DNA of 64,000 nt. It comes from Candidatus Poribacteria bacterium (GTDB taxonomy: Bacteria > Poribacteria > WGA-4E > WGA-3G). The notes under the pieces were generated by a model. That model saw only the letters and a program-made list of their open reading frames with translations. It made no database searches and was not told where the DNA came from. Of this stretch, positions 716 through 51,008 are shown in pieces. The number at the start of each line of letters is the position of its first letter. Position 1 is the stretch's first letter. The DNA is taken from assembly GCA_965197475.1 (NCBI GenBank), contig CBDANF010000003.1, forward strand, positions 2,816,001 through 2,880,000, in the 5' to 3' direction. The position numbers were made by a program, and so were the translations under genes.

Positions 716-724
716 TGGACACAA

Positions 725-997: not shown

Positions 998-1053
998 GGG
1001 TTTAGTCTCCTTTGGGGTTAGAGGGGACAGAGTCCCCTCGTTGGTTGGAATTG

Positions 1054-1443
1054 CTAATACCCGTATGGAGAATCAGCAGCTGAAATTAAAATTATCCAAA
1101 GTCCCACCATAGTGCCAGTTCCAATAACACATCCTATTGTAGCATGTGTTATTTGGTCGTTTTTCACAAGTTTTTGATAAATGCTTGTGTAATAAGCAAC
1201 ATATTCTGGTGATTTTCCAAGCAATTTTTCTGGTAGTACCGTTGGTGTGACAACATACGCAATTAACATACCGGTAACACCAAGTAGACAACCAACAGTT
1301 CCCCATATTTGAGTGTTTGCAAGTGTTGCATCACGTCGTGCATCAAATATTGCTTGCGCAGCATCACTTGTTTGTTGTGCAAGTGTGAGATATGGCGTAG
1401 TGAATAACATCACAACCATTATAAACGACAAAGTTTTCATCAA
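1054..1443 (-). CDS. IS passenger secreted/membrane protein (129 aa)
   Basis: Signal-peptide-like N-terminus plus two hydrophobic helices. AAGGA RBS. Confidence 0.75.
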   Translation of the reverse strand: MMKTLSFIMVVMLFTTPYLTLAQQTSDAAQAIFDARRDATLANTQIWGTVGCLLGVTGMLIAYVVTPTVLPEKLLGKSPEYVAYYTSIYQKLVKNDQITHATIGCVIGTGTMVGLWIILISAADSPYGY

Positions 1444-1510
1444 TGTTCCTTTTGTGAGGTAAAATGTGTATGTAGGGGATCAAAAGACCCCCTACATGTT
1501 TGCAAGCGGA

Positions 1511-1642
1511 TTATTTACACCGCTTGTGAGGTTTGACAGTTTCTTTCACCGTTGTGGCGGGACGGCGTTTGTCCGTGCCTTTGGGAAGGAACCGTCCGTC
1601 TTTGGCATCGCGTACACGCGTGCCAGTGGCTTTTTTAGCCAT
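1511..1642 (-). CDS. IS passenger small basic protein (43 aa, MAKKATG...RDAKDGRF)
   Basis: ATG at 1642 with GAGGT RBS. Followed by a hairpin (TGTAGGGG...CCCCTACA, ~1471-1496). Confidence 0.6.
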   Translation of the reverse strand: MAKKATGTRVRDAKDGRFLPKGTDKRRPATTVKETVKPHKRCK

Positions 1643-2602: not shown

Positions 2603-4153
2603 TTAATCTAAAAACAATTCTTCACCGTTTGCGGCAAAAATTCGATAGTCTTCAAGGTGAAGGTCTGCATCAGTCTCAAGCGTCAATTCCAGTTTCAGTG
2701 TCCGCTTAAGTTCACGCAATTTAGCAGACATCTGCGCGTTGACATGTGAGATGATGTGATCATTCGCGATAATTCGCAGTTTAGACTGCTGAGTATGGTT
2801 ATATGCTGTCTTGATTGCACGGAACAATCTAATCACAACGGTTTCAATTGACAGAATAGTCCCATGCCCTTCACAGTAAGGGCACTGCTCTGTAAGCAAA
2901 GTAGATAGGCTGGGACGGGTGCGTTGACGGGTCATCTCCACTAATCCTAAATCCGAAAAATGGAGAATATTGGTGCGCGCCTTGTCTTTTCGCAGTGCCT
3001 CCTGAAGTATTTTGAAAACCTGTTTCCGGTGAGATGGTTCGTCCATGTCAATGAAGTCAACAACGATAATTCCACCTAAGTCTCTCAATTGAATTTGTCG
3101 GACAACTTCATCAACAGCTTCAAGATTCGCGCTTAAAATAGTATTATCCGGATCAGATTTTCCGACGAATCGTCCTGTGTTGACATCAATCGAGACCATC
3201 GCTTCTGTTTGCTGGATGATGATGTGTCCACCACACTTGAGCCAAATTTTTTCGCTAAGTGCTCTTTGCAGTTCTTCCTCTACTCCATAAGCTTCAAAAA
3301 GAGCGGAGTCTTTTTTGTAAAGGGATATCCGATCCAGCATATTTGGCATTACAGAGGTTACATAATCAATTGTTTCTTTATAACCAGATTGCGAATCGAT
3401 CAGAAGTTTTTTAACATCTTTGGTAAGCATATCGCGAACAATCTGATTCGTGAAACTCACGTCTCTTCTAACCAAACTCGGTGCGGTTTTCCGTTTAGCA
3501 CGCTCGCGCGCTTGTTTCCACTGATTGATTAGATAGCGGATTTCAGCGGCAAATTCTTCCTCACTCAAACCTTCGGAGGCTGTCCGAATAATAAAACCCC
3601 CCTCAACGTCTGCTTTCAAGTTTTGTGCTAAGTCACGCAATCGGTCACGCTCGCTTTCAGATTCAAGCCGTCGCGAAACCCCGATCGTGGATGAGTTCGG
3701 CAGATAGACAACATAACGTCCTGGCAGTGTGATATTGCTCGTAACACGTGCGCCTTTATTGCCTATCGGCTCCTTCCCGACTTGCACAAGAAGTTCCTGA
3801 TTCTTTGAAATGAGATCAGTTATAAGATATGGAAATCCTCTGCCGCCACGCGACTTTTTTGACGGTGTTGCTTGCAAATCTAAAGTTGGTAACCCATCAT
3901 TCGATTTTCCGTTCTCAGTACCATTGTTATATTTCAGATCTGAGATGTGTAGAAAAGCATGTCGTTCTAAACCTATATCAACAAAAGCTACCTGCATACC
4001 TGGTAACACATTCTCAACACGTCCTTTATATAGGTTACCTAAGACAGGTTTTACCGCTTTTCGCTTAATGCGAATTTCATTTAGTATTCCTTTCTCAAGA
4101 ACTGCACAGCGCGTTTCGTACTCATCGTCAGAAATAAGTATCTCCTTTTCCAT
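2603..4153 (-). CDS. rng: Rne/Rng family ribonuclease (RNase G-like)
   Basis: S1 domain GNLYKGRVENVLPGMQVAFVDIG, plus SIDVNTG and LRDLGGIIVVDFIDM. Confidence 0.92.
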   Translation of the reverse strand: MEKEILISDDEYETRCAVLEKGILNEIRIKRKAVKPVLGNLYKGRVENVLPGMQVAFVDIGLERHAFLHISDLKYNNGTENGKSNDGLPTLDLQATPSKKSRGGRGFPYLITDLISKNQELLVQVGKEPIGNKGARVTSNITLPGRYVVYLPNSSTIGVSRRLESESERDRLRDLAQNLKADVEGGFIIRTASEGLSEEEFAAEIRYLINQWKQARERAKRKTAPSLVRRDVSFTNQIVRDMLTKDVKKLLIDSQSGYKETIDYVTSVMPNMLDRISLYKKDSALFEAYGVEEELQRALSEKIWLKCGGHIIIQQTEAMVSIDVNTGRFVGKSDPDNTILSANLEAVDEVVRQIQLRDLGGIIVVDFIDMDEPSHRKQVFKILQEALRKDKARTNILHFSDLGLVEMTRQRTRPSLSTLLTEQCPYCEGHGTILSIETVVIRLFRAIKTAYNHTQQSKLRIIANDHIISHVNAQMSAKLRELKRTLKLELTLETDADLHLEDYRIFAANGEELFLD

Positions 4154-4408
4154 TATTAGCGTTTCCTCCTATCATGCCTTTTTTTGAAAAGACATCTCGG
4201 TTAGTTAATTCGTTCATCTCAAAAAGCGGCAGCTTTGAAAAAGAATGATTCCGCGGGTTCAATTTCAGTGAAATGGTGGATTTAGAACGTATTGAATCCT
4301 CAAGGCGGGAGCATCGTTGCGTATTATGAAAGAGAGCAATATAATTTTCCATAGTCTTTCTCTTCCTAAAAAAGTCAATTTCAGGTGGGTGTCCTTGTGT
4401 TTAGATGA

Positions 4409-33366: not shown

Positions 33367-33478
33367 TTTGGATTCGCTCATTCAGAATATAAAGGAGGAA
33401 TTGGCCCGAGGCATTTAGTTCAACTGACAATTTGTGACTAAAATCTAAAACTAAAACAATGGCACAACTTAAATATAC

Positions 33479-34723
33479 TGTACTGCCACCGGAAATTCGG
33501 GCCGCTCTCTAAGACAAGATTATGGTATAATATCCATCTCCTTGAAAGGAGTATCCGATGGCGAAACGAAAACGAAGAAACTTCACCTCCGAGTTTAAAG
33601 CCGAAGTTGTTCTTGAGGCTCTCAGCGTTGAAAGTTCCCAAGCAGAAGTGTGTCGGCGACATAACCTCATCGATGAACAACTTTCAAAGTGGAAGCGACA
33701 GCTTCTTGAAAAAGCGGCGACCCTCTTTGAACCCGCTGATAAACAGTCTGATGCCTCTGCGGAGCGGATCGCCCAACTTGAGCAACTCGTTGGGCGGTTG
33801 ACCTTGGCACTTGACATCCAAAAAAAAGCCTCAACTTACTTGAGTTAGCCTCGATGGAGCAGCGAGAAATGGTTACGGCATTACGGACAGACTTTTCGGT
33901 TCGGCAGATATGTGAGACACTCGGTTTCAACCGAAGCAACCTCTATTATCACTCCAAGCAGGCCCCGTGTGAAGCGGGCCTCCAGGATGAAATAGAGACG
34001 TTATCTTTGCTATATCCAACATACGGATATAGGCGTCCCACACAGTTGTTGGTGCGTAGCGGATACACCATCGGGTATAAACGTGTTGCCCGATTGATGA
34101 AGTCCGCCAACCTCTCGGTTTCTGTCAAGCGTGTCTGTCAAACCACGACATCCGTTGCGGGTGTGCGTCCCTGGAGCAATCGCCTTGAAAACCTTGATGT
34201 CTCCCGATGTAATCAGGTCTGGGTGGGCGATATTACCTACGTCCGCCTCAAAGGACACTTTATCTATGTTTGTCTGCTCATGGATGTCTTCACTCGCATG
34301 ATCAGAGGGTGGCATATCAGTCAACACTTGACGCAATCTCTGACGTTGAAACCCTTGGAGACAGCATTATGTCAAAGTGTCCCAGAGATCCATCATTCTG
34401 ATCAAGGCGTTCAATATCTTTCAAATGCGTCCATCTCACTGCTTAGGCATCATGGGATTGAGATTTCAGTCGCCCGGAGAGGGTGTCCTTGGGAGAACGG
34501 ATATGCTGAAAGACTTATCCGCACGCTCAAGGAAGAAGAAGTTCATCTCAATGACTATGAGGACATCCACGAAGCAAGAACCCACATTGGGCATTTTATT
34601 ACACAAGTGTATAATCACAAACGCCCTCACTCTGCGTTAGGGTATTTGACACCTGTGGAATTTGAGCAAAAAAACTTGTCTTAACTTTGCTAAATTTTGG
34701 TCTGAATAAACGGTAGCACTTCA
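33479..34723 (+). mobile_element. IS3-family element, copy 1 (1245 bp)
   Basis: TG...CA ends with imperfect TIR. orfA 33558-33848, orfB 33854-34684 (WVGDITY, HHSDQG, ENGYAER). A8G -1 frameshift site at 33820-33828. No TSD. Confidence 0.95.
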
Positions 34724-37765: not shown

Positions 37766-37780
37766 GAGATATCCTCCTAA

Positions 37781-39025
37781 TGTACTGCCACCGGAAATTC
37801 GGGCCACTCTCTAAGACAAGATTATGGTATAATATCCATCTCCTTGAAAGGAGTATCCGATGGCGAAACGAAAACGAAGAAACTTCACCCCCGAGTTTAA
37901 AGCCGAAGTTGTTCTTGAGGCTCTCAGCGTTGAAAGTTCCCAAGCAGAAGTGTGTCGGCGACATAACCTCATCGATGAACAACTTTCAAAGTGGAAGCGA
38001 CAGCTTCTTGAAAAAGCGGCGACCCTCTTTGAACCCGCTGATAAACAGTCTGATGCCTCTGCGGAGCGGATCGCCCAACTTGAGCAACTCGTTGGGCGGT
38101 TGACCTTGGCACTTGACATCCAAAAAAAAGCCTCAACTTACTTGAGTTAGCCTCGATGGAGCAGCGAGAAATGGTTACGGCATTACGGACAGACTTTTCG
38201 GTTCGGCAGATATGTGAGACACTCGGTTTCAACCGAAGCAACCTCTATTATCACTCCAAGCAGGCCCCGTGTGAAGCGGGCCTCCAGGATGAAATAGAGA
38301 CGTTATCTTTGCTATATCCAACATACGGATATAGGCGTCCCACACAGTTGTTGGTGCGTAGCGGATACACCATCGGGTATAAACGTGTTGCCCGATTGAT
38401 GAAGTCCGCCAACCTCTCGGTTTCTGTCAAGCGTGTCTGTCAAACCACGACATCCGTTGCGGGTGTGCGTCCCTGGAGCAATCGCCTTGAAAACCTTGAT
38501 GTCTCCCGATGTAATCAGGTCTGGGTGGGCGATATTACCTACGTCCGCCTCAAAGGACACTTTATCTATGTTTGTCTGCTCATGGATGTCTTCACTCGCA
38601 TGATCAGAGGGTGGCATATCAGTCAACACTTGACGCAATCTCTGACGTTGAAACCCTTGGAGACAGCATTATGTCAAAGTGTCCCAGAGATCCATCATTC
38701 TGATCAAGGCGTTCAATATCTTTCAAATGCGTCCATCTCACTGCTTAGGCATCATGGGATTAAGATTTCAGTCGCCCGGAGAGGGTGTCCTTGGGAGAAC
38801 GGATATGCTGAAAGACTTATCCGCACGCTCAAGGAAGAAGAAGTTCATCTCAATGACTATGAGGACATCCACGAAGCAAGAACCCGCATTGGGCATTTTA
38901 TTACACAAGTGTATAATCACAAACGCCCTCACTCTGCGTTAGGGTATTTGACACCTGTGGAATTTGAGCAAAAAAACTTGTCTTAACTTTGCTAAATTTT
39001 GGTCTGAATAAACGGTAGCACTTCA
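37781..39025 (+). mobile_element. IS3-family element, copy 2 (1245 bp)
   Basis: Near-identical to 33479-34723. orfA 37860-38150, orfB 38156-38986, 3-bp TSD TAA. Confidence 0.95.
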
Positions 39026-39885: not shown

Positions 39886-42110
39886 ATGGAGATGGCTATG
39901 GCAAAATTACCGAACATTTTACTTATTCTCGCTGACGATCACGGGTATGGCGATATCTCGGCGCACGACGGACCGTCAATTCAAACACCACATATTGATA
40001 GGATTGCTGCACAGGGAACGCGTTTTACGCAATTCTATGCGAATTCTTCTGTTTGTTCCCCAAGCCGTGCATCCCTCATGACTGGACGCTATCCTGATAG
40101 AGCGGGTGTCCCCGGGGTGATTCGCACCCATGCACAGAACAACTGGGGTTACTTTCGACAAGACGCTATCACGTTGCCTTCAATGTTAAAACAGAAAGAT
40201 TATCGCACATCGCTCATCGGAAAATGGCATTTGGGGCTTGAAGATGAGAATCACCCGTGCAAACGAGGTTTTGACCATTTTCACGGTTTCCTCGGTGATA
40301 TGATGGACGATTATTACATGCATCTACGACATCAAAATAACTATATGCGGCACGGTTTTGACACGATCGATCCGAGGGGGCACGCCACTGACCTCTTTAC
40401 GGACTGGAGCGTGGACTTTATTCGAACAGGACTTACGCAGTTTTGAAGATTATTGAAGGATTAGAGAGTTGATGTCGTCCGTAATCATCCAATAAACTTT
40501 GTTTGAGTTCGTAAATCGTTTGAGTGATTTTCCGGGCAGCACGCTTCAAGCAGACCCAGACCTGGAAACAACACGCAATATGGTTTCGTTGGGCACGCAG
40601 TTTGCGGCATTGACATTTGTCAATACCGGTTAATTGTTTGATTTCACGATGAAGTTGCTCAATCTTCCAGCGAACCCGACACTGTTGTTTTGTCGCTTTC
40701 GCATCCGATTGAGATAAATCGTTTGTCACAATATATTCCGTGCGTCCTGTATCAGACACAATCCGGAACAACTTCACTTGATACCCTTTTGGAAACCTTT
40801 TGATATGCACGCGTTTGCCTTGTGTCGTTTCTGATGGAGACCAAGATAAATCTTTTTACTTGCTGGTGCGGTTCAACACCATCCGTATCATTTACAAGCC
40901 TGTTTCGTTTCAGGGGCGCATAGTAGACCTTGGAAAGTGCCGCAATCGCTTTCATTACTTTCATGGATACATACCAAGCATCCATTAGCACTGTCCGAAA
41001 CGAGAGTTGTTTCTTGAAGTAAGCATCGTGCAACATATCAAGTAAATGATCAATTTTGGATTTACCATCAGGGTCTTTGTCAAAAATGCGGTAATCAATG
41101 ATCCAATACTCGTGTGTCTTTGGGTTAACATAGACACACGTGACAATACCGATGCCTTCAATGACCTTTTTGTCGCTACCACTCCATTGAGGGTAGGCAG
41201 CTTCAATCAGTTTTGAATATATTTTTGACAGCACAACATCGTCAAAGATAAGGTATCCATCTTTATCAAACGCAATGTCGTCTTTGACAGATTCCCAGAG
41301 TTCGCTTGAAGGAATGTTTTCGTTTCTCAGGAAACGATTGAGTTGATCATGGCTCCACTTCTCCGTATGGTTTGCAAAATAGGTTTGTGTAAAATTAGTG
41401 AAACTCGCTAACAAAAATTGACAATAATCAGAAAATAAGTGGTGCTTCTTTTTAGAAAGTGTAAATGTAGTCATAATAGAACAGTATAACATAATTGTAG
41501 ATTATTGCGTAAGTCCTGTCGAACTCACGCACATACATCTCATCCTTTTTTCCTCTATCTTGCATATAACGCACCGCATACACCAATTCAACCGCCTGAA
41601 GATTGGATCGAACGCGTGAGGGAACGTGAACTGGACATTTCACCCCAGCGTGCCAAATACGTGGCACTCGTTGAGCACATGGATGCGGGTATCGGAAGGG
41701 TACTTGATACGCTTGAGGAAACTGATCAGCTTTCCAATACGCTTGTAATCTACACATCAGATAATGGAGGAGCGATGCAGGTCGGTGCACATAACGGTCC
41801 GCTACGCGGGCAAAAAGGTGAGATGTACGAAGGCGGGATCCGAGTGCCTACGTGTGCTATGTGGCAAGGGCAGATACCAGAAGGACATGTTACGGATCAG
41901 GTAGCGATGCTTATGGATATCTTTCCAACGCTATGCGAGGTAGTTGATGTTCCTATCAAACACGAAATTGAGGGACGTTCAATTTGGCAAACGCTTCAAG
42001 GCGAAGAACAGGATTTCTCCGAACGCCTCCTTTATTGGTTGCGGAGAGAGGGAGGACAACAGTTTCACGGTCAGTGTCAACATGCCATTCGGCGTGGCGA
42101 TATAAAGTTA
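39886..42110 (+). pseudogene. Sulfatase interrupted by an IS701-like element and truncated by IS1595
   Basis: CSPSRASLMTGRY and GKWHLG motifs. Frame resumes at 41524 (PFFLYLAYNAPH, SDNG, YEGGIRVP) and ends at the IS1595 TIR. Confidence 0.9.
40427..41518 (-). mobile_element. IS701-like element with frameshifted transposase (ORFs 41492-40752 and 40810-40433)
   Basis: TIR CAGGACTTACGCA and 5-bp TSD TCGAA. LIFDDVVL, LMDAWY and RWKIEQLHREIKQ motifs. Confidence 0.9.
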
Positions 42111-42328
42111 CGCAATGAGTAGTTTTGGACTTGAGAAAAATTTTAAAAAATCGCTATAAAGCCTTGTGTCCACTGGGTTTATATGGTATAATATAGATAA
42201 GAAAATAGGGGGTTGGTAGCCCCCTAAATGAACACAAAAAGCGAGTTGCTTTTTGACGGTTCTAATCTTATCTGGTATTATATCAGAAATCCGTCAGAAA
42301 AAGCAACTCCTATTTCAAGGAGTTATCT

Positions 42329-43211
42329 GATGGATTTGTTGAAGGTGATGGAGCGTTTTCCCGATCAAGAGAGTTGTATTTCGCATTTAGAGAAGATTCG
42401 GTGGCGAGGTAAACCTGTGTGTCCGCATTGTGAAAGCGATCATATAGGAGAACGGACAGAAACAGAAATCGGTCGTATCGGTCGTTGGAACTGCCACGAG
42501 TGCCAAGTGAGTTTCAAGGTGACGTGCAGGTCGGTGTTTCACGGGACAAAGATAGCGTTACAGAAGTGGTTTTTGGCTATTTCGTTGATAACGAATGCGA
42601 AGAAAAGTTTGTCAAGTCATCAACTTGCGCGCGATTTAGACTTGAATCAAAAGACAGCATGGTATATCATGACTCGTATCCGTGCTGAAATGGCAAAGAA
42701 AGGTAACGTGCTACTACAAGGCATCATAGAGGCAGATGAAACTTACATCGGGGGTAAACCTCGTAAGCCTAATAAGAAGGAAGACCACGTGCCTGCCAAG
42801 CGTGGACGTGGAACAGAGAAAGACGCTATTATCGGGGCAGTACAGCGGGGCGGGAAAGTTGTAGCACAACTCGCTAAAGATTTGACAGGACGGACTATTT
42901 TAGACTTTATCCGAAGAGTCGTCAAAGTTGAGGATTCGGAGTTGATGACCGATGAGTATAAGGCGTATCTCGCTATCGGCAAGGAGATGAAACACCATAT
43001 CATAGATCATCAAACGCAATTTGTTGAGGGTGATGTCCACACAAACACAATTGAGGGGTTTTGGAGTCTACTCAAACGAGCTTGGTATGGAAGTCATCAC
43101 CACTACTGGACTGAATATACGCCCCTGTATGTAGCAGAGGCGTGCTATAAATACAACTATAGGAGCATTGACAGTATCTTTGATAAGTTTGTTAATGAAA
43201 GTATGCGGTGA
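42329..43211 (+). CDS. IS1595 transposase
   Basis: CPHC...CHEC Zn ribbon, EADETY, TDEY and NTIEGFW. Confidence 0.93.
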
Positions 43212-43220
43212 TGGACACAA

Positions 43221-43493
43221 CTAAAGGTATGCCTTATCAATCTTGTTCTTTTTGTCATCAGGATTTGAGGGAAAATGCTGTGGAAGTTCAAAAGTTGGCT
43301 TTCCATCTTTCAGAGCATCGATCATGTCAAGAGCAAATTCCAACCTCTCATTGTCCGTGTCAAAAGGTTTCTGAATCACTACGCGAAAATTTGTATCAAG
43401 TTTTACAAGGGCGAGTTCTACAAAACTCTCTGTATGTAAGGCTAAAAGTGAAAAATCAACAGGATCGGAAGGCGGCTTGAATATTACCCACAT
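43221..43493 (-). CDS. IS passenger hypothetical protein (copy of 725-997)
   Basis: Identical sequence. Confidence 0.6.
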   Translation of the reverse strand: MWVIFKPPSDPVDFSLLALHTESFVELALVKLDTNFRVVIQKPFDTDNERLEFALDMIDALKDGKPTFELPQHFPSNPDDKKNKIDKAYL

Positions 43494-43549
43494 GGGTTTA
43501 GTCTCCTTTGGGGTTAGAGGGGACAGAGTCCCCTCGTTGGTTGGAATTG

Positions 43550-44063
43550 CTAATACCCGTATGGAGAATCAGCAGCTGAAATTAAAATTATCCAAAGTCC
43601 CACCATAGTGCCAGTTCCAATAACACATCCTATTGTAGCATGTGTTATTTGGTCGTTTTTCACAAGTTTTTGATAAATGCTTGTGTAATAAGCAACCTGA
43701 TATTTCTCAAAAGCACTCAGAAATCAGTATCTATCTATGGTCTCTCAATACGCGGTTATGAAAATGCTAAAAAATACTAATTGATAAACCTCCATTATGT
43801 GAAAAAAGCACTTTATTTTCAATACAAAATAGAATAAATTGTCCATTAAATGGGTTTTTTATTGGTGTGACAACATACGCAATTAACATACCGGTAACAC
43901 CAAGTAGACAACCAACAGTTCCCCATATTTGAGTGTTTGCAAGTGTTGCATCACGTCGTGCATCAAATATTGCTTGCGCAGCATCACTTGTTTGTTGTGC
44001 AAGTGTGAGATATGGCGTAGTGAATAACATCACAACCATTATAAACGACAAAGTTTTCATCAA
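43550..44063 (-). pseudogene. Passenger membrane gene disrupted by a 165-bp IS-end remnant (43697-43861)
   Basis: Compared with the intact copy at 1054-1443, 41 bp are replaced by 165 bp. Confidence 0.85.
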
Positions 44064-44130
44064 TGTTCCTTTTGTGAGGTAAAATGTGTATGTAGGGGAT
44101 CAAAAGACCCCCTACATGTTTGCAAGCGGA

Positions 44131-44262
44131 TTATTTACACCGCTTGTGAGGTTTGACAGTTTCTTTCACCGTTGTGGCGGGACGGCGTTTGTCCGTGCCT
44201 TTGGGAAGGAACCGTCCGTCTTTGGCATCGCGTACACGCGTGCCAGTGGCTTTTTTAGCCAT
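44131..44262 (-). CDS. IS passenger small basic protein (copy of 1511-1642)
   Basis: Identical sequence. Confidence 0.6.
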   Translation of the reverse strand: MAKKATGTRVRDAKDGRFLPKGTDKRRPATTVKETVKPHKRCK

Positions 44263-44850
44263 AGTATACCTCACTTTGCTTGAGATAAATTGGTGCATAG
44301 CGTATTTCCAGTGCGTTATGCACTGTTCAAGCATATAAAATTGATACGTTAAACGGGTATCGTTCGTAGGTTCGTTTACACCTTTCTATGGGTGAGGGCA
44401 GGACACAACACAAGGAGTGTTGCGATAGAAATCCTGCCCAACGAACTTGAGAATAGTATAACATGGAAAGAATTTGAGTGTCAAGTGAAAAATTTGAGAA
44501 AAAATTTCAAGTCCAAAACTACTCATTGCGTATATTTTTATATATGTTATTGTGAACACATGAAAAAGACTAAGCAACGGGTTTTCCCTCATTTTACGAC
44601 AGAAGTTCTTACGCTTCCAACGACAATTCGGAAATCTTTATCTTTGGCATAGGATCGCTTTCTAAGTACTCACTCATCCATCTGCCTATCCGTTCTTCAC
44701 GACTCGTTTTTCGATTGGCATGAATATACTCAAGGTAATGAGTCGATCACTTGAGGCAAAAAATCATCATGAGTAAGGCCTTGGAGCAATGCGTGGAATT
44801 CGCTACGGACATATCAGCAAGTTTTTCACAAGATTCACCGTTCATGTGTT

Positions 44851-46287
44851 TTGACATACTCCCCCAGCTAAAGCAAGGGGGATTCTTCTAAAAGAGAATC
44901 CCTTGCTTTCAGGTGCGGATTGTGGGTTTCCGACTTCGGTTGAAGTCTGCGAGGGTTGCTTGTGATCGCAAGTCTGATACCCTCTAATCCAAAGGTTAAT
45001 GCCCCAACCTTTACTATGTTTATAGCAGCATTCACGTCTCTGTGGTGATTAGTTGGACAACGATTACAAGTCCATTGACGTATAGACAAGTCCATTAGCA
45101 TTTGCTGTTGTCCGCAGGTGCTACAGTTTTTAGAAGTCGCTTCAAACCTATCAATATGATAGATTTCTTTACCATGTTTTGTGGCTTGGTGTTTCAACTT
45201 CAGGTGGAATGCATAGGGCGCAATATCAGAGACTTTACGCCCCCATAGACGCTTCATGCCTTCAAAGGTAAGCGTTTCAAAGCAGAGTGCGTCATATTTA
45301 TGGACAAACTGCTTGGCAAGTTTCCAATGGTGGTCGTCTCGTTTACGCCTGATTTTACGGTGAACACGTGCAGCGTCTTTTCGTGAACGCTCACGATTAT
45401 TGCTACCTTTAACTTTGCGTGAATGTTTGCGTTGTGCTTTCGTCAGTGCTGCCATAGAAGTTTTATAGAATTCAGGGGATGCGTAGAGTGTGCCGTCAGA
45501 ACAGGTGAACATTGTCTTCATACCGAAGTCAAACCCTGCAGCATGACCCGTCTTAGGTAGGACTTCGGAAACAGTGGGGTCTGACACGACAGACATATAG
45601 AAATCACCGAGACTATCTTCCTTTATCGTGATCGTTTTGATATTACCGAGTATAGGACGGCTAAGATTAAAACGATAGTATTTATCCTGTATCCGAACCT
45701 TATCACCATAGAAACCATAACCAGAGGGTGACAGAGTGAACGAATATGGCTTTCGCCATGAACGGAACTTAGGTGGACGCTTGGCAATACCGTCAAAGAA
45801 ACGCTTATGGTTTCCTATATGCAACCTTTTCAGTATCTGCCGGGCTGCCCACGAATCTAACTCACGCCAATGGGCAAACACTTCAGGGTGTGCCGGACGC
45901 AATATAGTGAACTGCCGAGACATTTCGTTATAGGACATATACGGCAGTCCAAGAGCGTAGCGAGCCCGTTGCCAGCCTAAAAAGTAGTTCCATATATCGT
46001 GTGCTATCCACGTTAATCGCTTCAAATTACGATTACGTCTCGCACGAAAAAGTTTGTCCAATGTGCTATACATGGTATATCAAGTATCAAGTTTTTAACC
46101 CCTAATGAGTGAGTAGGCAGACACGTAACCTTGCGATTACGCTCATTATGTCTGCCAACTTGATACTCTAATTATACTACATTTTAGACCGAAAATCAAA
46201 CCTTTTTCTACAAATGTTTGGTCTAATTAACGAGGGCGAGACTGTATCCCCGCCTTAAAAGGCGAGGTTTTAGTCTCGGAGGTTTTG
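44851..46287 (-). mobile_element. IS200/IS605-family TnpB-only (IS1341-like) element
   Basis: Minus-strand right end ...GGGGGAGTATGTCAA with hairpin. Left-end hairpin CCCCGCCTTAAAAGGCGAGG, preceded by TTTAT. No tnpA. Confidence 0.88.
44868..46073 (-). CDS. tnpB: RNA-guided endonuclease TnpB, RuvC triad apparently intact
   Basis: GFDFGMK (D), LCFETL (E), Zn finger CSTC...CNRC, HRDVNAA (D). Confidence 0.92.
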   Translation of the reverse strand: MYSTLDKLFRARRNRNLKRLTWIAHDIWNYFLGWQRARYALGLPYMSYNEMSRQFTILRPAHPEVFAHWRELDSWAARQILKRLHIGNHKRFFDGIAKRPPKFRSWRKPYSFTLSPSGYGFYGDKVRIQDKYYRFNLSRPILGNIKTITIKEDSLGDFYMSVVSDPTVSEVLPKTGHAAGFDFGMKTMFTCSDGTLYASPEFYKTSMAALTKAQRKHSRKVKGSNNRERSRKDAARVHRKIRRKRDDHHWKLAKQFVHKYDALCFETLTFEGMKRLWGRKVSDIAPYAFHLKLKHQATKHGKEIYHIDRFEATSKNCSTCGQQQMLMDLSIRQWTCNRCPTNHHRDVNAAINIVKVGALTFGLEGIRLAITSNPRRLQPKSETHNPHLKARDSLLEESPLL

Positions 46288-46900
46288 ATAAAAGAGGGAC
46301 AATTTTGGAGGATTCTTTATCGCATATTTCACGCGTGCACAGGCTTGGCAGCGGCACCGCATTTTTCAGAGAGGGGTTTTCGGTAGATAGACAACGTCTA
46401 AAATAGGGACGGAAAGTTTTTTTACATCACGATACCCGATTCCTATTTTCGTTTTCATGTAAAATACAGAAAAAGTTGTCAGATCAAATCACCTAACCGT
46501 ATGGGTTTATCCAATGTGTCAAAATTCACACATAAAACAGTTATACAACGCTATTAGTGAGATTTTGGATACCGAATTCTGCGTGTTTGATAAAATATCA
46601 ATACCAAAAGAAATAATACTCAAAACGCCCAACCATAGTGCTTTCCCGTAATCAAGAAACTTCTGATTTCAATGTAAGCGTTTCGGTGTCAACAGCAGTG
46701 ACTTTCACCAGTTTCAATCTCGTAATCGAGTAACTTCTGATTTCAATATTGAGCAGATTATCAATCCTCCGCCTGAATATGTGAAGTTTCAATCTCGTAA
46801 TCGAGTAACTTCTGATTTCAATATGAACATCATGACGACACAGACACAATCAATTGCTATGATGTTTCAATCTCGTAATCGAGTAACTTCTGATTTCAAT

Positions 46901-47180
46901 TCATCATGGAGTGGTCGTAAGTATGCTCGGCAGCCTGGATAATCTGATGGATATATGGATAGTCTTCAGCGATTTCGCTATACCAGCCGTCTTTGACATC
47001 TTCGTCTGTCCAGATGTCCTTGAATTCTGCGCCTTCTGCGGGTGAGCCGATGGGGGCTTTGTATTGTTTCTTTGTGTTGAAAGGTGGATCAAGGTATATG
47101 AGATCCACCGTTTCGGAGTTCATGCCACGCATGATGTTAAGGTTGTCGGCGATGAAGAGGGTGCGGTTTTGGAGGTTCAT
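46901..47180 (-). pseudogene. N-terminal fragment of an N6/N4 DNA methyltransferase cut at the CRISPR repeat
   Basis: NRTLFIADNL...DLIYLDPPFNT. The stop codon is supplied by the repeat. Confidence 0.85.
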
Positions 47181-47190
47181 ATCATAAATA

Positions 47191-47457
47191 TTACGACAGT
47201 ATCTTAATATCTAAAAGTTCAAATCCTATACCTTCAGAACTTATATCAACAGTCACTGGTATAGGTTTCATTGAAGGAAGAACATCTTCTATAAGTTTCT
47301 CATTTCTTGTATAAAGCATTAACTGATGTTCCGCATCATTCTTAGGAGGGAAAAAGCGAAAAAAAAGACCGAAAAGAGGACCCGTATTTGTATTATATTG
47401 GTAAACATCAGTTATGGATCCTGTTAATGTACCTCTATTTGGATATATAAAAGACAT
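47191..47457 (-). CDS. Hypothetical protein (88 aa) in the CRISPR-bracketed insert
   Basis: AGGAG RBS, complete ORF. Confidence 0.65.
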   Translation of the reverse strand: MSFIYPNRGTLTGSITDVYQYNTNTGPLFGLFFRFFPPKNDAEHQLMLYTRNEKLIEDVLPSMKPIPVTVDISSEGIGFELLDIKILS

Positions 47458-47521
47458 CTATTTCTCCTTATTGAAGGTTGTCGGCTATGAAGAGGGTGCG
47501 GTTAGGGATTTGTTGGTTCAT

Positions 47522-47983
47522 TTATCGCCATGTTTGAAGTCTTTTATCAAAATTATTAGCTTCTGCTATACACCAAGCAGGTAAGTCGTCTTTAGACCAA
47601 TGAGCGGGGCTTAGTTCGACAGAGTAAACTGGTATACCAGGTGCGACAAAATCATAAATTGCAAAATAAAACTTAGGCACACGTCGTTGTAAAGATGAAG
47701 CAATTGAAACCCATTGGTCTTTTGTGCCATCTTTGAATTTAATACCAAGAACAGTCACAAAAATACGCCATTCCCAATCATCGTTTTTACCAACAATGAC
47801 AACATCGCCTAATGCGCGTAGTTCTCGCTTAAGATGGCTTTCAATTATAATTTGTTCAGTTTTATCTTCTTTTTTTGCATGGACATACACATACACCTTG
47901 AATGTCTTAGGTTCAGGAGCGTAGGCGTTGCCTATGAATACAGCGGAGAGTAGAAGGATTGTGAGTACTAATGATCGTTTCAT
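47522..47983 (-). CDS. Secreted hypothetical protein (153 aa) in the CRISPR-bracketed insert
   Basis: Signal peptide MKRSLVLTILLLSAVFIGNAYA. Confidence 0.72.
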   Translation of the reverse strand: MKRSLVLTILLLSAVFIGNAYAPEPKTFKVYVYVHAKKEDKTEQIIIESHLKRELRALGDVVIVGKNDDWEWRIFVTVLGIKFKDGTKDQWVSIASSLQRRVPKFYFAIYDFVAPGIPVYSVELSPAHWSKDDLPAWCIAEANNFDKRLQTWR

Positions 47984-48060
47984 GGATCACCTTTTATGAA
48001 GAGGGTGCGGTTAGGAATTTGCAGAGGCATAGGAGAAGTTTACATTGTGTGTTATGGTCA

Positions 48061-48444
48061 TTATTTTTCAAAGTTGCTATCTGAGGACACTGGAATACGA
48101 GTACCAATAACACCGTATCCATCATATCCTTCGATCGGTTTTGACTCACCATCCTTTTCAGAACGAAGATCGTATATTTGCTTGCCAGATCTAATTGCAC
48201 TGATTATCTTTTCAAATAAAATCAGACAATCATCTTTACTATGAAAGCCTGCAAAAATATAATAAGTCTCAGAATCATTTGAGAATTTGCCATCATGGAA
48301 TTTTTGAACACCTAAACAGTATGCATCTTTATCGTTAGACTCTTTTACTTTATAAACAACGATTGAGTCATGATTATTTATATTGATAGCAAGAGTATCA
48401 ATAAATTCATTTCTTGTATAAGAATGTTCCAATATTATTAACAT
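48061..48444 (-). CDS. Hypothetical protein (127 aa) in the CRISPR-bracketed insert
   Basis: GAGGTG RBS, complete AT-rich ORF. Confidence 0.62.
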   Translation of the reverse strand: MLIILEHSYTRNEFIDTLAININNHDSIVVYKVKESNDKDAYCLGVQKFHDGKFSNDSETYYIFAGFHSKDDCLILFEKIISAIRSGKQIYDLRSEKDGESKPIEGYDGYGVIGTRIPVSSDSNFEK

Positions 48445-48515
48445 GCTAATTCACCTCTTACAGAATTAAATATATTGCATTAAAGCATTAACAAAATAGT
48501 TAATCCACTTAAATT

Positions 48516-48748
48516 ATGCCAACACCACAAGATGTTATCTGGGAAAGGGATTTAATACCTTACATACATGTCACACTGCTGGGTGAGGACATCACAGCCG
48601 ATTTGCTTTCAGAAAACAATCAAGGTATTGAGGGTATAGAACTGACGCTTGATTATCCGCAACTGAACGTTTTCAAAGCATCGAACATTATCCTTACACT
48701 TGCGAACGATGATGGACGTTTCTCACCTGATAACACCAGCAACTTTTT
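48516..48748 (+). pseudogene. N-terminal fragment of a probable phage tail/structural protein cut at the CRISPR repeat
   Basis: LTLANDDGRFSPDN resembles phage minor tail proteins (inference). The ORF then runs into the repeat sequence. Confidence 0.5.
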
Positions 48749-48785
48749 GTTTCAATCTCGTAATCGAGAAACTTTTGATTCCAAC

Positions 48786-49045
48786 TTACGTCTCGCACGA
48801 AAAAGTTTGTCCAATGTGCTATACATGGTATATCAAGTATCAAGTTTTTAACCCCTAATGAGTGGGTAGGCAGACACGTAACCTTGCGATTACGCTCATT
48901 ATGTCTGCCAACTTGATACTCTAATTATACTACATTTTAGACCGAAAATCAAACCTTTTTCTACAAATGTTTGGTCTAATTAACGAGAGCGAGACTGTAT
49001 CCCCGCCTTAAAAGGCGGGGATACAGTCTCGGAGGTTTTGATAAA
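48786..49045 (-). mobile_element. Truncated second copy of the tnpB element: left end, upstream region and first ~14 codons
   Basis: Matches 46033-46292 (offset 2753) with about 6 differences. Starts at the base after the repeat. Confidence 0.9.
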
Positions 49046-49345
49046 TACAACATATCCTAATACAATCCATCAGTGAGATCAATGTTTTTAGAATATTAAT
49101 GAATATTTACTATTTCTTCAAACAATTGGATAAAAGAGTCGGAACCACGTCACTAATCGGTTGAGAACAATCAGGGATTCTAACCTAACGCATTGGATAA
49201 CGGTTAACACATGCGCGTTTCAGAGATCGCAGTTCCGACCCACCTAAGGAGGCATATTTAGTAATCCGCAATTTCTATGCCAACGGAAAAGGGTGGCATT
49301 CGGTGGAGCGTGCCCTGCTACTTTTAAGGACACACTTCATCTATT

Positions 49346-50251
49346 TTAATTTGAATCCGAAAGTTCTTCTCCAACAATTAGCCGATATGCCTCTCGGTAT
49401 TTCTCGCTCGTTTTAGTAATCACAGTGTCCGGTAACTCAGGTGCTGGCGGTTGCTTGTTCCATCCGATCTCAGAAAGATAATCCCGAACAAACTGCTTGT
49501 CAAAACTTTGTTGTGGCTTTCCGGGTTCATATAAAGCGGCGGGCCAAAACCTTGAGGAATCAGGTGTAAACACTTCATCAATCAAGATCAATTCACCCTC
49601 TCGTTCACCGAATTCAAATTTTGTGTCACATAGGATGATACCTGAGTTTTCGGCATGCCTACTTGCCACCTTGAATAGCGCGAAACTGATATCAATTAGT
49701 CGATCGGTCAGATCAGTACCAACCTGATCACGCATTTGGTCAATAGATATTGGTTCGTCATGCTCACCTTGCTCTGCTTTGGTAGTCGGGGTGAATAGAA
49801 GTTCAGGTAGCCGATCCGACTCGCGTAGTCCCGCGGGTAGTTTTTGTCCGCATATTTCTCCTATTTTCTGATACGAAGCCCACCCCGAACCAGCAAGGTA
49901 ACTCCGCACAACACATTCAATATCAACGCGCTTAGCTTTCTTGACAAGCATTGAACGTCCATTTAAAAGGTCAGCATCAGCATGTAATGTGTCGGGATAC
50001 TCTTCGACTTCTGTTGAAATAAGATGGTTTTCTACGACAGATTTGGTGTAATTGAACCAGAATTTTGACAATCCGGTTAAAACTCTGCCTTTATCTGGAA
50101 TACCGTTCGGCAAGACAACATCAAAGGCAGAAATCCGATCAGTAGACACAATCAGAAATTCATCACCGAGATCGTAGAGATCGCGGACTTTACCACGATG
50201 TGCAGGACTTAAGTTTGTTAATTGTGTAGACGTAATAGTTTTTTGAGGCAT
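49346..50251 (-). CDS. purC: SAICAR synthetase
   Basis: HRGKVRDLY, TDRISAFD, DTKFEFG, DEVFTPDSSRFW and SFDKQFVRDYL. Confidence 0.96.
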   Translation of the reverse strand: MPQKTITSTQLTNLSPAHRGKVRDLYDLGDEFLIVSTDRISAFDVVLPNGIPDKGRVLTGLSKFWFNYTKSVVENHLISTEVEEYPDTLHADADLLNGRSMLVKKAKRVDIECVVRSYLAGSGWASYQKIGEICGQKLPAGLRESDRLPELLFTPTTKAEQGEHDEPISIDQMRDQVGTDLTDRLIDISFALFKVASRHAENSGIILCDTKFEFGEREGELILIDEVFTPDSSRFWPAALYEPGKPQQSFDKQFVRDYLSEIGWNKQPPAPELPDTVITKTSEKYREAYRLIVGEELSDSN

Positions 50252-50453
50252 ATTTCTCTCCTAAAAAATTTCTTAAGTATCACATTACTCTTTTAGCAGA
50301 TTTTGAAGCACAACTACAGTCTTTACCACGATGTGCAGGACTTAAGTTTGTTAATTGTGTAGACGTAATAGTTTTTTGAGGCATATTTCTCTCCTAAAAA
50401 ATTTCTTAAGTATCACATTACTCTTTTAGCAGATTTTGAAGCACAACTACAGT
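50188..50453. repeat. Perfect 133-bp tandem duplication
   Basis: 50188-50320 = 50321-50453. Spans the TPR gene 3' end, the intergenic region and the purC 5' end. Confidence 0.9.
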
Positions 50454-51008
50454 TCTATTTTTCGCATCAATTTTTAGCACTTTCTCAATCTCTTGTTTTG
50501 CATGCTGATTTTTACCGAGATAGTAGTAGCACGCTGCCTTAAGTGCATGAAGTTCTGCTTCAGAGTGATAATCGTGCCGATACAAGTATTGTGCATCAGC
50601 CTGCAATGCGTTATCTATTGCACGGATTGCCGATTCAAAATCGGAATTATCTTTATATCGTAAGTATAGCACATTCGCTAAACCAACCCAAGCGTCCCCG
50701 TTAGATGGATCAAATCGCACAGCATTTTGGAAACCTTCTTGTGCAAGGGAAAGAGAGAGCCCAAGACTTAGATTACTCCAACCGACTCCGTTGTGTGCAT
50801 CACCAAATTCAGGATCAGTGTTGAGGGCGCGTTCAAAACTCAATAAAGCTTGGGTATAATTGCCTGAATAATAAGAACGCCATCCTTGCTGAGTATGATT
50901 TAAAGCGGTTGACGCTCCATTGTCAGAATCACTTGAACAACCAACTTGTATTAAAAGTGAGAATATAAGAAAAAAGATGGACAGAACGATATAAATTTGG
51001 CGCGTCAT
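50418..51008 (-). CDS. TPR lipoprotein
   Basis: Signal ending QVGC, TPR motifs (ALNTDPEFGDAHNGVG). Confidence 0.8.
   Translation of the reverse strand: MTRQIYIVLSIFFLIFSLLIQVGCSSDSDNGASTALNHTQQGWRSYYSGNYTQALLSFERALNTDPEFGDAHNGVGWSNLSLGLSLSLAQEGFQNAVRFDPSNGDAWVGLANVLYLRYKDNSDFESAIRAIDNALQADAQYLYRHDYHSEAELHALKAACYYYLGKNQHAKQEIEKVLKIDAKNRTVVVLQNLLKE

What the first reader, a model, noticed from the sequence alone, without database searches (positions are those of the whole stretch)
46864..48785. 1848-bp multi-gene 'giant spacer' of phage-like DNA between two CRISPR repeats
Seen: after three normal 37-41 bp spacers, the interval 46901-48748 holds three complete ORFs. At each edge a gene is cut exactly at the repeat boundary: a DNA methyltransferase (DPPF) at 46900/46901 and a probable phage tail gene at 48748/48749. 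The outer repeat differs from the others at 4 of 37 nt, so this is not a simple recent repeat duplication. Inferred explanations: (a) Cas1-Cas2 integration of an oversized prespacer, (b) spacer-protospacer recombination that captured the phage segment between two targeted sites, turning the array into a gene-capture platform, or (c) an assembler walking from spacers into protospacers. The resolved near-identical 1.2-2.4 kb IS copies suggest long reads, which argues against (c).
Basis: partly seen in the sequence, partly recalled or inferred. Interest (0 to 1): 0.88.

Follow-up and report, generated by a model that had tools for sequence, protein, structure and literature searches.

The report
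Kilobase DNA trapped between CRISPR repeats
A leftover CRISPR array in a sponge-symbiont genome really does hold 1.85 kb of ordinary gene fragments between two repeats, but it looks like a recombination scar carried inside a jumping gene rather than a giant immune memory.

Summary
Repeats lie at 46637 (degenerate), 46711, 46786 and 46864, with spacers of 37, 38 and 41 bp. Then come 1848 bp (46901-48748) and a fifth repeat (48749-48785) that differs at 4 of 37 positions. A short-read contig from a public run (1905 nt, no differences) covers the insert and reaches into both repeats at the same depth as the flanks, so an assembler walk from spacer into protospacer is unlikely.

The context changes the reading. 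The genome has no Cas1 and no type I-D cas homologue. Same-genus relatives (Candidatus Poribacteria MAGs) have 13-100-repeat arrays of this repeat family next to type I-D cas genes. By their orientation the outer repeat is leader-proximal, but in place of a leader it abuts, to the base, a 260-nt copy of the left end plus first 13 codons of an IS200/IS605-family tnpB element. The whole 4.2-kb block (44851-49045) is bounded by that left end and the IS right end, and fills a site that is empty in two relatives.

"Phage tail gene" is not supported. The insert is one collinear piece of a methyltransferase/small-ORF/large Ig-protein locus found in relatives.

My reading is a decayed orphan array remodelled by recombination at repeat borders, most likely spacer-protospacer recombination. 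Oversized Cas1-Cas2 integration is not excluded. The mechanism is unproven.

The parts
44851..46292 (-). IS200/IS605-family element (tnpB only): right end ...TCAA at 44851, left end (LE_A) tip at about 46287-46292
   Evidence: Copies 92% identical in two relatives cover 44850-46214. The right end matches the G020 copy up to TCAA. The left-end tip is preceded by TTTAT.
44868..46073 (-). tnpB, 401 aa
   Evidence: Pfam OrfB_IS605 1.9e-22 and Cas12f1-like_TNB 1.1e-17. NCBIfam guided_TnpB 207 bits against a cut-off of 100.
46033..46292 (-). D1A: left end plus first 13 tnpB codons, inner copy. Its hairpin is weakened.
   Evidence: Direct repeat, 98% identical to 48786-49045. Hairpin -12.6 kcal/mol. 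Four of the 6 mismatches lie in one hairpin arm.
46293..46636 (.). 344-bp flank on the trailer side of the array, unique
   Evidence: No copy elsewhere in the genome. Among the 39 other genomes of the genus there is only one 54-nt weak hit.
46637..46900 (-). Orphan mini-array: degenerate trailer repeat R0, then R1, R2 and R3, with spacers of 37, 38 and 41 bp. The crRNA sense is the minus strand.
   Evidence: Orientation follows from cas genes lying upstream of arrays in relatives.
46901..48748 (.). 1848-bp insert between R3 and the outer repeat
   Evidence: One contig spans it in run X2.
46896..47180 (-). N-terminal 93 residues of a DNA methyltransferase, cut at the repeat
   Evidence: 84% protein identity to a full 476-aa paralogue. 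PHROG DNA methyltransferase 6.5e-8.
47191..47457 (-). ORF of 88 aa, no family
   Evidence: No hit in Pfam, PHROGs, NCBIfam or PADLOC.
47522..47983 (-). ORF of 153 aa with a hydrophobic N-terminus, no family. Homologues lie next to the large-protein fragment in relatives.
48061..48444 (-). ORF of 127 aa, no family. The genome holds 35%-identical paralogues at six places.
   Evidence: A read variant that skips 48013-48469 is seen in X1 and X3.
48516..48748 (+). N-terminal 77 residues of a large-protein family, cut at the repeat
   Evidence: 11 relatives at E<=0.001. One is 1376 aa with a He_PIG Ig domain. Most are short fragments.
48749..48785 (-). Outer (leader-proximal) repeat, 4 of 37 positions different
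   Evidence: It is identical over its full 37 nt to the main repeat variant of relative G020 (41 full-length copies in the main array and 2 in a second array) and to the trailer-most repeat of the G003 array.
48786..49045 (-). D1B: outer copy of the IS left end (LE_B) plus the first 13 tnpB codons. Its hairpin is a perfect 19-bp stem. It carries a promoter-like site reading towards the array.
   Evidence: Hairpin -24.5 kcal/mol, z -11.5. TTGATT-17-TATAAT at 48952-48924.
47139..47173 (-). Start of the methyltransferase gene. Two further copies of this roughly 30-nt 5' end lie at 47474-47508 and 47983-48017, between the small ORFs.
   Evidence: family D4: 100%, 91% and 63% identity.

Best explanation
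This is a real, single-copy structure. It is a decaying orphan remnant of a type I-D CRISPR array, not a working spacer.

Layout, read in the crRNA sense (minus strand): IS left end plus 13 tnpB codons (LE_B), outer repeat, 1848 bp, three repeat-spacer units, degenerate trailer repeat, 344 bp, second left end (LE_A), tnpB, IS right end. The whole 4.2 kb (44851-49045) occupies one IS200/IS605-type insertion site that is empty in relatives.

Shown: the anatomy, the orphan status, the three base-exact junctions at repeat borders, the empty site, and the collinearity of the insert with a methyltransferase/small-ORF/large-protein locus found in relatives.

Inferred: the exact junctions arose by homologous recombination between ordinary spacers and matching DNA. 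Two spacers that matched sites 1.8 kb apart in that locus would have let a double crossover replace the repeat-spacer units between them with the intervening DNA. That would leave two non-sister repeats as flanks. A third spacer matching tnpB codons 2-13 would have joined the array to the IS. Either a double crossover with a donor fragment, or a 2753-bp circle integrating Campbell-style, explains why the duplicated segment runs exactly from the IS tip to codon 13.

Without Cas6 or any other cas gene in the genome, the array can make no crRNA today. At most it is read through from the IS promoter.
For: Real structure. An X2 contig of 1905 nt covers 46871-48775 with 0 differences at depth 13.7. 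The flanks are at 12.7 and 12.9.

Orphan array. There is no Cas1. tblastn with Cas10d, Csc2, Csc1, Cas3', Cas6 and Cas4-Cas1 of a relative finds nothing in the genome.

Repeat family and orientation. 9 of 61 genomes searched hold the repeat, all in one genus. Cas1 lies beside the array in 5 of 5 relatives tested. A type I-D gene set was identified in G024.

Exact junctions. See and 13/92.

Flanking repeats are not sisters. They differ at 4 of 37 positions, and position 21 shows the pattern described above. Arrays in the genus are mosaics of blocks of repeat variants. The outer variant is the main repeat of G020.

The insert is one collinear locus. In relatives the ORF153 homologue and the large-protein N-terminus lie adjacent and divergent. 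In G022 the large-protein N-terminus lies beside a methyltransferase.

Empty site. G003 and G020 join window position 44850 directly to about 49043.

IS ends. TTTAT precedes the left end at 3 of 3 junctions, and the right end finishes in TCAA.

Duplicated segment. D1 runs from the IS tip to codon 13, and none of its 6 mismatches lies in the 36 nt next to the repeat.

PAM at the IS junction. A 36-nt protospacer ending at that junction is preceded by GTA, which fits the type I-D GTN PAM (PMC10212523, passages).

Precedent. Spacer-target recombination is described in a review passage (PMC8616872).
Against: No sister spacer was found. None of 550 spacers from arrays of relatives matches this genome. 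Against the non-array loci there were only self-overlaps. The end-of-insert patterns gave 0 hits in metagenome contigs and viral contigs.

PAM at the methyltransferase end. No GT lies at the PAM position for any spacer length from 32 to 43.

PAM at the other insert end. The source sequence is unknown. The three homologues that align through the junction (3 of the 6 aligned) give AAT, AAT and GAC, not GTN.

The single GTA match has roughly a one-in-three chance expectation over the plausible spacer lengths.

No donor locus was found for the 344-bp trailer flank or for the insert. The best matches in the genus are 68-77% identical in DNA.

The model needs three separate recombinogenic spacers.

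The junction between the outer repeat and the IS is not covered by any listed read contig.

Only one genome and one study hold the structure.
Confidence: 0.4

Rival explanations
1. Integrase-mediated capture. Cas4-Cas1-Cas2 of an ancestor or donor strain joined the 3' ends of long DNA molecules to repeat borders. These were either a full-site integration of a 1.85-kb fragment or separate half-site events on two different repeats. The same chemistry joined the IS fragment to the leader side of the outer repeat. The cas genes were lost afterwards.
For: All three novel junctions lie on repeat borders. My own reasoning from the type I-D integration model shows that each has the strand polarity expected for integrase attack (model read in passages of PMC10212523). 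No PAM is required at the non-PAM end, which fits the methyltransferase end lacking GTN. The giant interval occupies the leader-proximal position, where new spacers enter.
Against: A full-site event makes identical sister repeats. Here 4 of 37 positions differ, and the position-21 pattern is not that of a copy of R3. Spacers integrated by type I-D are about 35 nt, give or take 5-6 (PMC10212523). My searches found no report of kb-scale integration (4 papers held two or more of the terms; the 3 listed are not about CRISPR arrays). There are no cas genes in the genome.
Confidence: 0.15
2. Illegitimate or homology-facilitated recombination. A foreign or ectopic fragment carrying an array and a nearby IS copy recombined with the resident IS through the tnpB homology. 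Its other end joined by microhomology. The insert arose by an unrelated illegitimate event. On this reading, the coincidence of the junctions with repeat borders is partly chance.
For: The 260-nt duplication and the empty site fit a homologous anchor in the IS. Zero to 2 nt of shared bases (GT) are possible at the right junction. The genome is rich in IS copies.
Against: Three independent breakpoints all fall within 0-2 nt of a repeat border. With a unit length of about 75 nt, that is improbable by chance. There is no microhomology at the left junction.
Confidence: 0.2
3. Assembly or binning artefact. The contig joins molecules of different strains or organisms at CRISPR repeats.
For: The genome is a MAG with 6.97% contamination. 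The outer repeat variant also sits between ordinary spacers at very high depth in the same runs (X3 rows at about 1300-1400; 12 rows shown, 63 not shown). The IS left-end core is also at very high depth and in several contexts. In run X3 the exact insert pieces are at depth 11-21 against flanks at 51 and 79, and variant pieces are present (all). No listed contig covers 48785/48786.
Against: Contigs from short k-mers cross both insert junctions and carry variant-specific bases of each repeat, at the depth of the flanks in X1 and X2. The IS fragment is joined to the repeat inside tnpB, where there is no shared sequence to mislead an assembler. The block fits one empty site exactly.
Confidence: 0.07
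4. A mobile element that carried its own solitary repeat or mini-array integrated into the host array by repeat-repeat recombination. It later decayed to 1.85 kb.
For: The outer repeat is a different variant from its neighbours. Integration through solitary repeat units has been proposed (review passage, PMC8616872).
Against: Both flanking genes are cut at the repeat borders. Recombination inside the repeats would not do that. No phage or plasmid hallmark gene is present.
Confidence: 0.05

Closest known systems
Recombination between CRISPR spacers and their targets (Varble et al. 2019, Nat Microbiol). The paper is not held. I know it from recall, from a reference list and from one review passage (PMC8616872).
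   Same: It gives junctions that fall exactly at repeat borders, because the homology is the spacer itself. It links arrays physically to foreign DNA.
   Different: By recall, it was described for phage-array exchange and transduction in the laboratory. Here the result is a fixed natural 1.85-kb replacement between two non-sister repeats, plus a fusion to an IS, in a genome without cas genes. No matching spacers have been found.
IS insertions inside CRISPR arrays
   Same: They produce a kb-scale interval between two repeats. Relative G002 has one of 972 bp, holding a 275-aa transposase-like ORF with inverted ends.
   Different: In G002 the element sits inside a spacer and leaves spacer remnants on both sides. 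Here the DNA is not a transposon, and it begins and ends at the repeat borders.
Orphan CRISPR arrays (Bernheim et al. 2019, PMC7145637, passages read)
   Same: The array sits in a genome without cas genes and is short. That paper reports 12% of arrays as orphans, averaging eight repeats.
   Different: This orphan lies between a duplicated IS left end and tnpB, at a site that is empty in relatives. That offers a concrete route by which it could have arrived.
Type I-D adaptation by Cas4-Cas1-Cas2 (review PMC10212523, passages read)
   Same: Same repeat family, as shown by the neighbouring genes in relatives. The interval is at the leader-proximal position and has exact borders.
   Different: The length is 1848 bp against about 35 nt. 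The flanking repeats are not identical. There is no leader and there are no cas genes.
IS200/IS605-family tnpB elements and the TnpB-to-Cas12 scenario (recalled; PMC6452270 seen only in a search listing)
   Same: A tnpB gene and a CRISPR array are physically linked, co-oriented, and lie within one pair of IS ends.
   Different: The repeats belong to a Cas6-processed type I-D family and lie upstream of tnpB, outside the 3' guide-RNA region. Nothing shows that TnpB uses them.

Membership tests
CRISPR array of the type I-D repeat family | Near-identical direct repeats separated by unique spacers of regular length | tested here: met
   Three identical 37-nt repeats, one degenerate repeat and one variant repeat. 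Spacers are 37, 38 and 41 bp.
CRISPR array of the type I-D repeat family | The same repeat family lies next to type I-D cas genes | tested here: met
   This holds in relatives only. Cas1 lies beside the array in 5 of 5 relatives. In G024 the neighbours include Csc2, Cas6, Cas4-Cas1 and a DEAD helicase. The 948-aa and 242-aa genes had no Pfam hit. I call them Cas10d and Csc1 from their position only.
CRISPR array of the type I-D repeat family | A leader and cas genes present in this genome | tested here: not met
   No Cas1. No tblastn hit for six cas proteins. An IS fragment stands where the leader should be. Genome completeness is 92.7%.
Spacer made by Cas1-Cas2 integration | Length in the system's range (about 35 nt, give or take 5-6) | tested here: not met
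   1848 bp. The range is taken from PMC10212523.
Spacer made by Cas1-Cas2 integration | Flanking repeats are sister copies | tested here: not met
   4 of 37 positions differ. Position 21 is A, T, T, T, A along the array.
Spacer made by Cas1-Cas2 integration | A GTN PAM beside the protospacer in the source | tested here: inconclusive
   The source is unknown. The three homologues that align through the junction give AAT, AAT and GAC. The PAM itself was not measured for this genus.
Spacer-protospacer recombination product | Junctions exactly at repeat borders, with contiguous target DNA between them | tested here: met
Spacer-protospacer recombination product | The terminal 35-41 nt occur as ordinary spacers in related arrays | tested here: inconclusive
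   0 of 550 spacers of relatives match. Pattern scans gave 0 hits. The arrays present in the runs themselves could not be searched.
IS200/IS605 family (tnpB-only element) | A TnpB protein | tested here: met
IS200/IS605 family (tnpB-only element) | Subterminal hairpins, a conserved target next to the left end, no target duplication, and an empty site | tested here: met
   LE_B hairpin -24.5 kcal/mol. TTTAT at 3 of 3 left-end junctions and TCAA at the right end. Empty sites in G003 and G020. The right-end hairpin is weak (z -1.4).
IS200/IS605 family (tnpB-only element) | A Y1 transposase (TnpA) | tested here: not met
   None lies in the element. Two Y1_Tnp matches lie elsewhere in the genome.
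Phage or prophage DNA | Hallmark virion, packaging or integration genes, or matches to phage records | tested here: not met
   Only the methyltransferase hits PHROGs. tblastn of the fragment against 50,697 phage records finds nothing. There are no relatives in viral contigs. The 1376-aa relative gives only weak PHROG hits: 1.1e-5 to a family of unknown function and 6.7e-4 to a virion structural protein. A more distant 2248-aa relative (49% identity) carries tail-fibre-like Ig and fn3 domains. That is a lead, not a match.

The most novel reading that the evidence does not exclude
An IS200/IS605-family tnpB element has picked up a CRISPR mini-array plus captured genes between a duplicated, intact outer left end and tnpB, and moves or has moved them as one unit. 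All three novel joints were made at repeat borders by CRISPR-specific chemistry or homology. If so, this would be a natural snapshot of two things. One is kb-scale DNA capture at CRISPR repeats. The other is how a TnpB nuclease gene and a CRISPR array come to share one mobile element, which is the physical step assumed in the origin of type V systems.
Probability: 0.12. Interest if true: 0.85.

Novelty: new variant of a known kind. Interest (0 to 1): 0.55.

Why it matters
If the junctions were made through spacer homology, this is a natural, fixed example of an array capturing 1.8 kb of DNA by recombination, where the normal route is the adaptation machinery. It would also show how an array loses its cas genes yet survives as cargo of a transposon. 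So far this process is known mainly from laboratory phage-host work.

It also gives a concrete route for the spread of orphan arrays, and a case of tnpB and a CRISPR array lying within one pair of IS ends.

If it is only a scar of illegitimate recombination, it is a curiosity. It would then mainly warn against reading long inter-repeat intervals as giant spacers.

Tried and rejected
Rfam. A scan of 44000-50500 at E<=1 gave three sub-threshold matches and nothing usable.

Small ORFs. The three small ORFs and the 77-aa fragment have no Pfam, PHROG, NCBIfam or PADLOC family.

Phage origin. I found no support. The neighbours of the homologous locus in G031 are WD40 and PD40 proteins and an oxidoreductase, not phage genes. 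In G031 and G022 the large-protein gene is itself only a short remnant.

Measuring the PAM for this genus failed. Spacers of relatives gave no protospacer in this genome or in the fetched loci. The three ordinary spacers have no exact match in viral contigs. A genus-wide search with the G020 array returned almost only arrays, plus one 31-nt candidate.

Looking for the same junctions or the source elsewhere. There were 0 hits in metagenome contigs and in viral contigs. The 344-bp trailer flank has no homologue in the genus.

Other kb-scale gaps in arrays of relatives turned out ordinary. One is an IS in G002. The other is a duplicated trailer-plus-repeat unit in G020.

Rejected ideas. I considered that the tnpB gene might be a small type V effector serving this array. 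I dropped this because the array lies beyond the IS left end, the repeats belong to a type I-D family, and copies of the IS in relatives have no array. I also considered that TnpA cut the CRISPR repeat as a pseudo-end, and found no sequence support.

A pure deletion between an IS and the array was rejected. The flank of the IS right end is the partner of the outer left-end flank in the empty sites.

Unexplained low-depth joints. One runs 48786 to 46748 (X2, depth 4.4). One runs 46731 to 46863 (X1, depth 5.6). One runs 46899 to 48747, with the letters between unknown. I could not interpret them beyond strain variation.

Supplementary files of papers were not consulted.
Full report
WHAT IS THERE. 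The window is C3:2816001-2880000 of a 5.7-Mb genome in three contigs, 92.7% complete and 6.97% contaminated. Two same-genus relatives that surfaced with names are MAGs titled Candidatus Poribacteria.

On the plus strand, identical 37-nt repeats lie at 46711-46747, 46786-46822 and 46864-46900. A degenerate repeat lies at 46637-46673, and a variant repeat at 48749-48785 differs at 4 of 37 positions. The spacers are 37, 38 and 41 bp. The interval 46901-48748 is 1848 bp.

No other place in the genome carries the repeat.

IS IT AN ASSEMBLY ARTEFACT? Three public runs from one study hold the stretch. They are kept as Logan contigs, so they show k-mer continuity, not single molecules.

In X2 one contig of 1905 nt covers 46871-48775 with no difference at depth 13.7. 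It runs from 30 nt inside the inner repeat to 27 nt inside the outer repeat, and includes bases specific to each variant. The unique flanks are at depth 12.7 (46263-46739) and 12.9 (49025-49500). In X1 the listed pieces tile the same span at depth 13.7-21.2, against flanks at 17 and 21.1. No listed piece branches about 37 bp inside the insert.

This argues against an assembler walking from a spacer into a protospacer. Three caveats remain.
- The join of the outer repeat to the next segment (48785/48786) is not covered by a listed piece.
- In X3 the exact insert pieces are at depth 11-21 against flanks at 51 and 79. Variant pieces are present (5 and 12 differences), as is a form that skips 48013-48469. 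More than one haplotype or a related locus therefore exists there.
- The outer repeat variant also sits between ordinary spacers at very high depth. The twelve rows shown are all from X3, at depth about 1300-1400. A further 63 rows were not shown.

CONTEXT: AN ORPHAN TYPE I-D ARRAY, READ FROM THE RIGHT. The genome has no Cas1. It has no tblastn match to the Cas10d-like, Csc2, Csc1-like, Cas3', Cas6 or Cas4-Cas1 proteins of a relative.

The repeat family is native to the genus. 9 of 61 genomes searched hold it, all in one genus, with 13 to 100 copies in the large arrays. A more sensitive search with the G020 array matched 18 of 40 genomes of the genus.

In 5 of 5 relatives tested a Cas1 gene lies beside the array. 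In G024 the neighbours are Csc2, Cas6, a Cas4-Cas1 fusion and a DEAD-box helicase. This is a type I-D set.

The cas genes lie upstream of the repeat as read ...ATTGAAAC. In the window, therefore, the crRNA sense is the minus strand, the leader side is on the right, and the degenerate repeat at 46637 is the trailer end. The giant interval thus sits at the leader-proximal position.

THE THIRD EXACT JUNCTION AND THE IS. Immediately after the outer repeat comes a 260-nt segment, 48786-49045. It is 98% identical to 46033-46292. That segment is the first 13 codons of a 401-aa tnpB gene plus 220 nt upstream of it. The gene matches OrfB_IS605 and the Cas12f-like TNB domain and NCBIfam guided_TnpB at 207 bits.

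Copies of the element that are 92% identical exist in G020 and G003. Alignments place the right end at 44851 (...TCAA) and the left-end tip at 46287-46292 and 49040-49045. TTTAT precedes the tip at 3 of 3 junctions.

The outer left end has a perfect 19-bp hairpin (-24.5 kcal/mol). The inner one is weakened (-12.6), and carries 4 of the 6 mismatches between the two copies in one hairpin arm.

In G003 and G020 the sequence to the left of 44851 is directly continuous with the sequence to the right of about 49043. The whole block 44851-49045 therefore fills one IS-type insertion site. It comprises the IS, the 344-bp flank, the array, the insert, the outer repeat and the second left end.

In the five relatives checked (G001, G003, G020, G022, G024), purC, which lies next to the block, is not near the CRISPR locus in the four that have a type I-D locus, G001, G003, G020 and G024. 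A Y1 transposase gene exists elsewhere in the genome.

WHAT THE INSERT IS. The left edge is the first 93 residues of a DNA methyltransferase. A full 476-aa paralogue elsewhere in the genome is 84% identical in protein. It is a type II-like adenine methyltransferase with a C-terminal stretch that matches the HNH-nuclease regions of IscB and Cas9 models. Its DNA homology runs to the last base before the repeat.

The right edge is the first 77 residues of a protein family with 11 relatives at E<=0.001. One is 1376 aa and has a He_PIG Ig domain. Most are short fragments.

I found no phage support for this fragment. 'Tail gene' remains only a distant lead, resting on a 2248-aa relative at 49% identity with tail-fibre-like domains.

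In relatives the ORF153 homologue and this N-terminus are adjacent and divergent (G031, G004, G023). In G022 the N-terminus lies beside a methyltransferase. The insert is therefore one collinear piece of a locus that is widespread in the genus, at 68-77% DNA identity. It is not a patchwork.

MECHANISM. Three novel junctions fall within 0-2 nt of a repeat border. This is unlikely for random breakpoints.

A simple oversized integration predicts identical flanking repeats. They differ at 4 of 37 positions. Position 21 is A in the trailer repeat, in the outer repeat and in every listed repeat variant of the relatives, and T only in the three middle repeats. Arrays in this genus are mosaics of blocks of repeat variants. 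The outer variant is the main repeat of G020 and the trailer-most repeat of G003.

Recombination between ordinary spacers and matching DNA explains all of the following:
- the exact borders;
- the non-sister flanking repeats;
- the collinear insert;
- the fact that the 260-nt duplication ends at codon 13 on one side and at the IS tip on the other. A spacer matching codons 2-13 would allow either a double crossover or Campbell-type integration of a 2753-bp circle.

A 36-nt protospacer at that IS junction is preceded by GTA. This fits the GTN PAM reported for type I-D (PMC10212523).

The evidence against is substantial.
- The methyltransferase end has no GT at the PAM position for any spacer length from 32 to 43.
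- The three homologues that align through the other end give AAT, AAT and GAC.
- None of 550 spacers from relatives matches this genome.
- No donor locus was found.

I therefore put spacer-protospacer recombination at about 0.4. I put integrase-mediated joining at 0.15, illegitimate or homology-facilitated recombination at 0.2, an artefact at 0.07, and integration of an element through its own repeat at 0.05.

FUNCTION TODAY. Probably none as immunity. There is no Cas6, no effector and no leader. A promoter-like site in each left-end copy reads towards the array and the three small ORFs, which are all co-oriented with tnpB. Read-through transcription is therefore possible, but it has not been shown.

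COMPARISON WITH WHAT IS KNOWN. The structure resembles products of spacer-target recombination. That comparison rests on my recall of Varble et al. 2019, which is not held, and on a review passage. It also resembles orphan arrays (PMC7145637). It differs from IS-interrupted arrays such as the one in G002.

Searches for 'giant spacer', 'oversized spacer', 'unusually long spacer' and 'abnormally long spacer' together with CRISPR found 4 papers holding two or more of the terms; none of the 3 listed is about CRISPR arrays. A search for CRISPR array, IS605, TnpB and orphan found no description of such a composite among the ten listed titles. I read listings only, so this is weak evidence that the structure is not in print.

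VERDICT. The 'giant spacer of phage DNA' reading is not supported as stated. The 'recombination capture' reading is plausible and is extended by the IS junction. The whole structure is a one-off remnant carried within IS ends. Interest is moderate.

Noticed in passing
window 47139-47173, 47474-47508, 47983-48017: The first roughly 12-16 codons of the methyltransferase gene occur three times. Each extra copy is a short dead-end reading frame just upstream of a small ORF (88 and 153 aa). It looks as if gene cassettes were inserted serially just after the start of the methyltransferase gene. Read contigs in X1 and X3 also show a form that skips 48013-48469, which holds the 127-aa ORF.
   Followed up: partly
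window 43695-43867: A roughly 170-nt element is 98-99% identical to at least 16 listed places in G003 and G020, which are different species of the genus, and 83-89% identical to places in G001 and G022. It may be a recently active MITE or IS end shared across species.
   Followed up: no
window 50188-50453: A perfect tandem duplication of 133 nt overlaps the start of purC and the end of the next gene.
   Followed up: no
window 48824-48943 and 46071-46190: The promoter and 5' UTR core of the IS left end is at very high depth in the runs (bin depths of about 9000-30000) and occurs in several contexts that diverge right after the ATG. Related copies at about 79% identity are numerous in G003 and G020. 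The left-end module appears to be shared by a large IS family with different downstream genes.
   Followed up: partly
L067 (G020:C1:5360001-5368000), 2950-4300: A second array in G020 is built from blocks of three different repeat variants. It ends in a tandem duplication of a unit of about 330 nt of trailer plus a terminal repeat.
   Followed up: partly
G000:C3 around 242436, 591869, 1217485, 2473276, 2587535, 2788001: Six identical copies of a paralogue of the 127-aa ORF (35% identity) lie beside sequence similar to window 44438-44540. They look like a passenger gene of a multi-copy element.
   Followed up: no
window 1-1541 versus 42497-44161, and 33476-33775 versus 37778-38077: Long direct repeats 99-100% identical, probably IS copies (ISXO2-like and IS3-like ORFs). 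A sulfatase gene at 39886-42122 appears to be split by another transposase insertion. My naming of these ORFs rests on reading their sequences, not on a family search.
   Followed up: no
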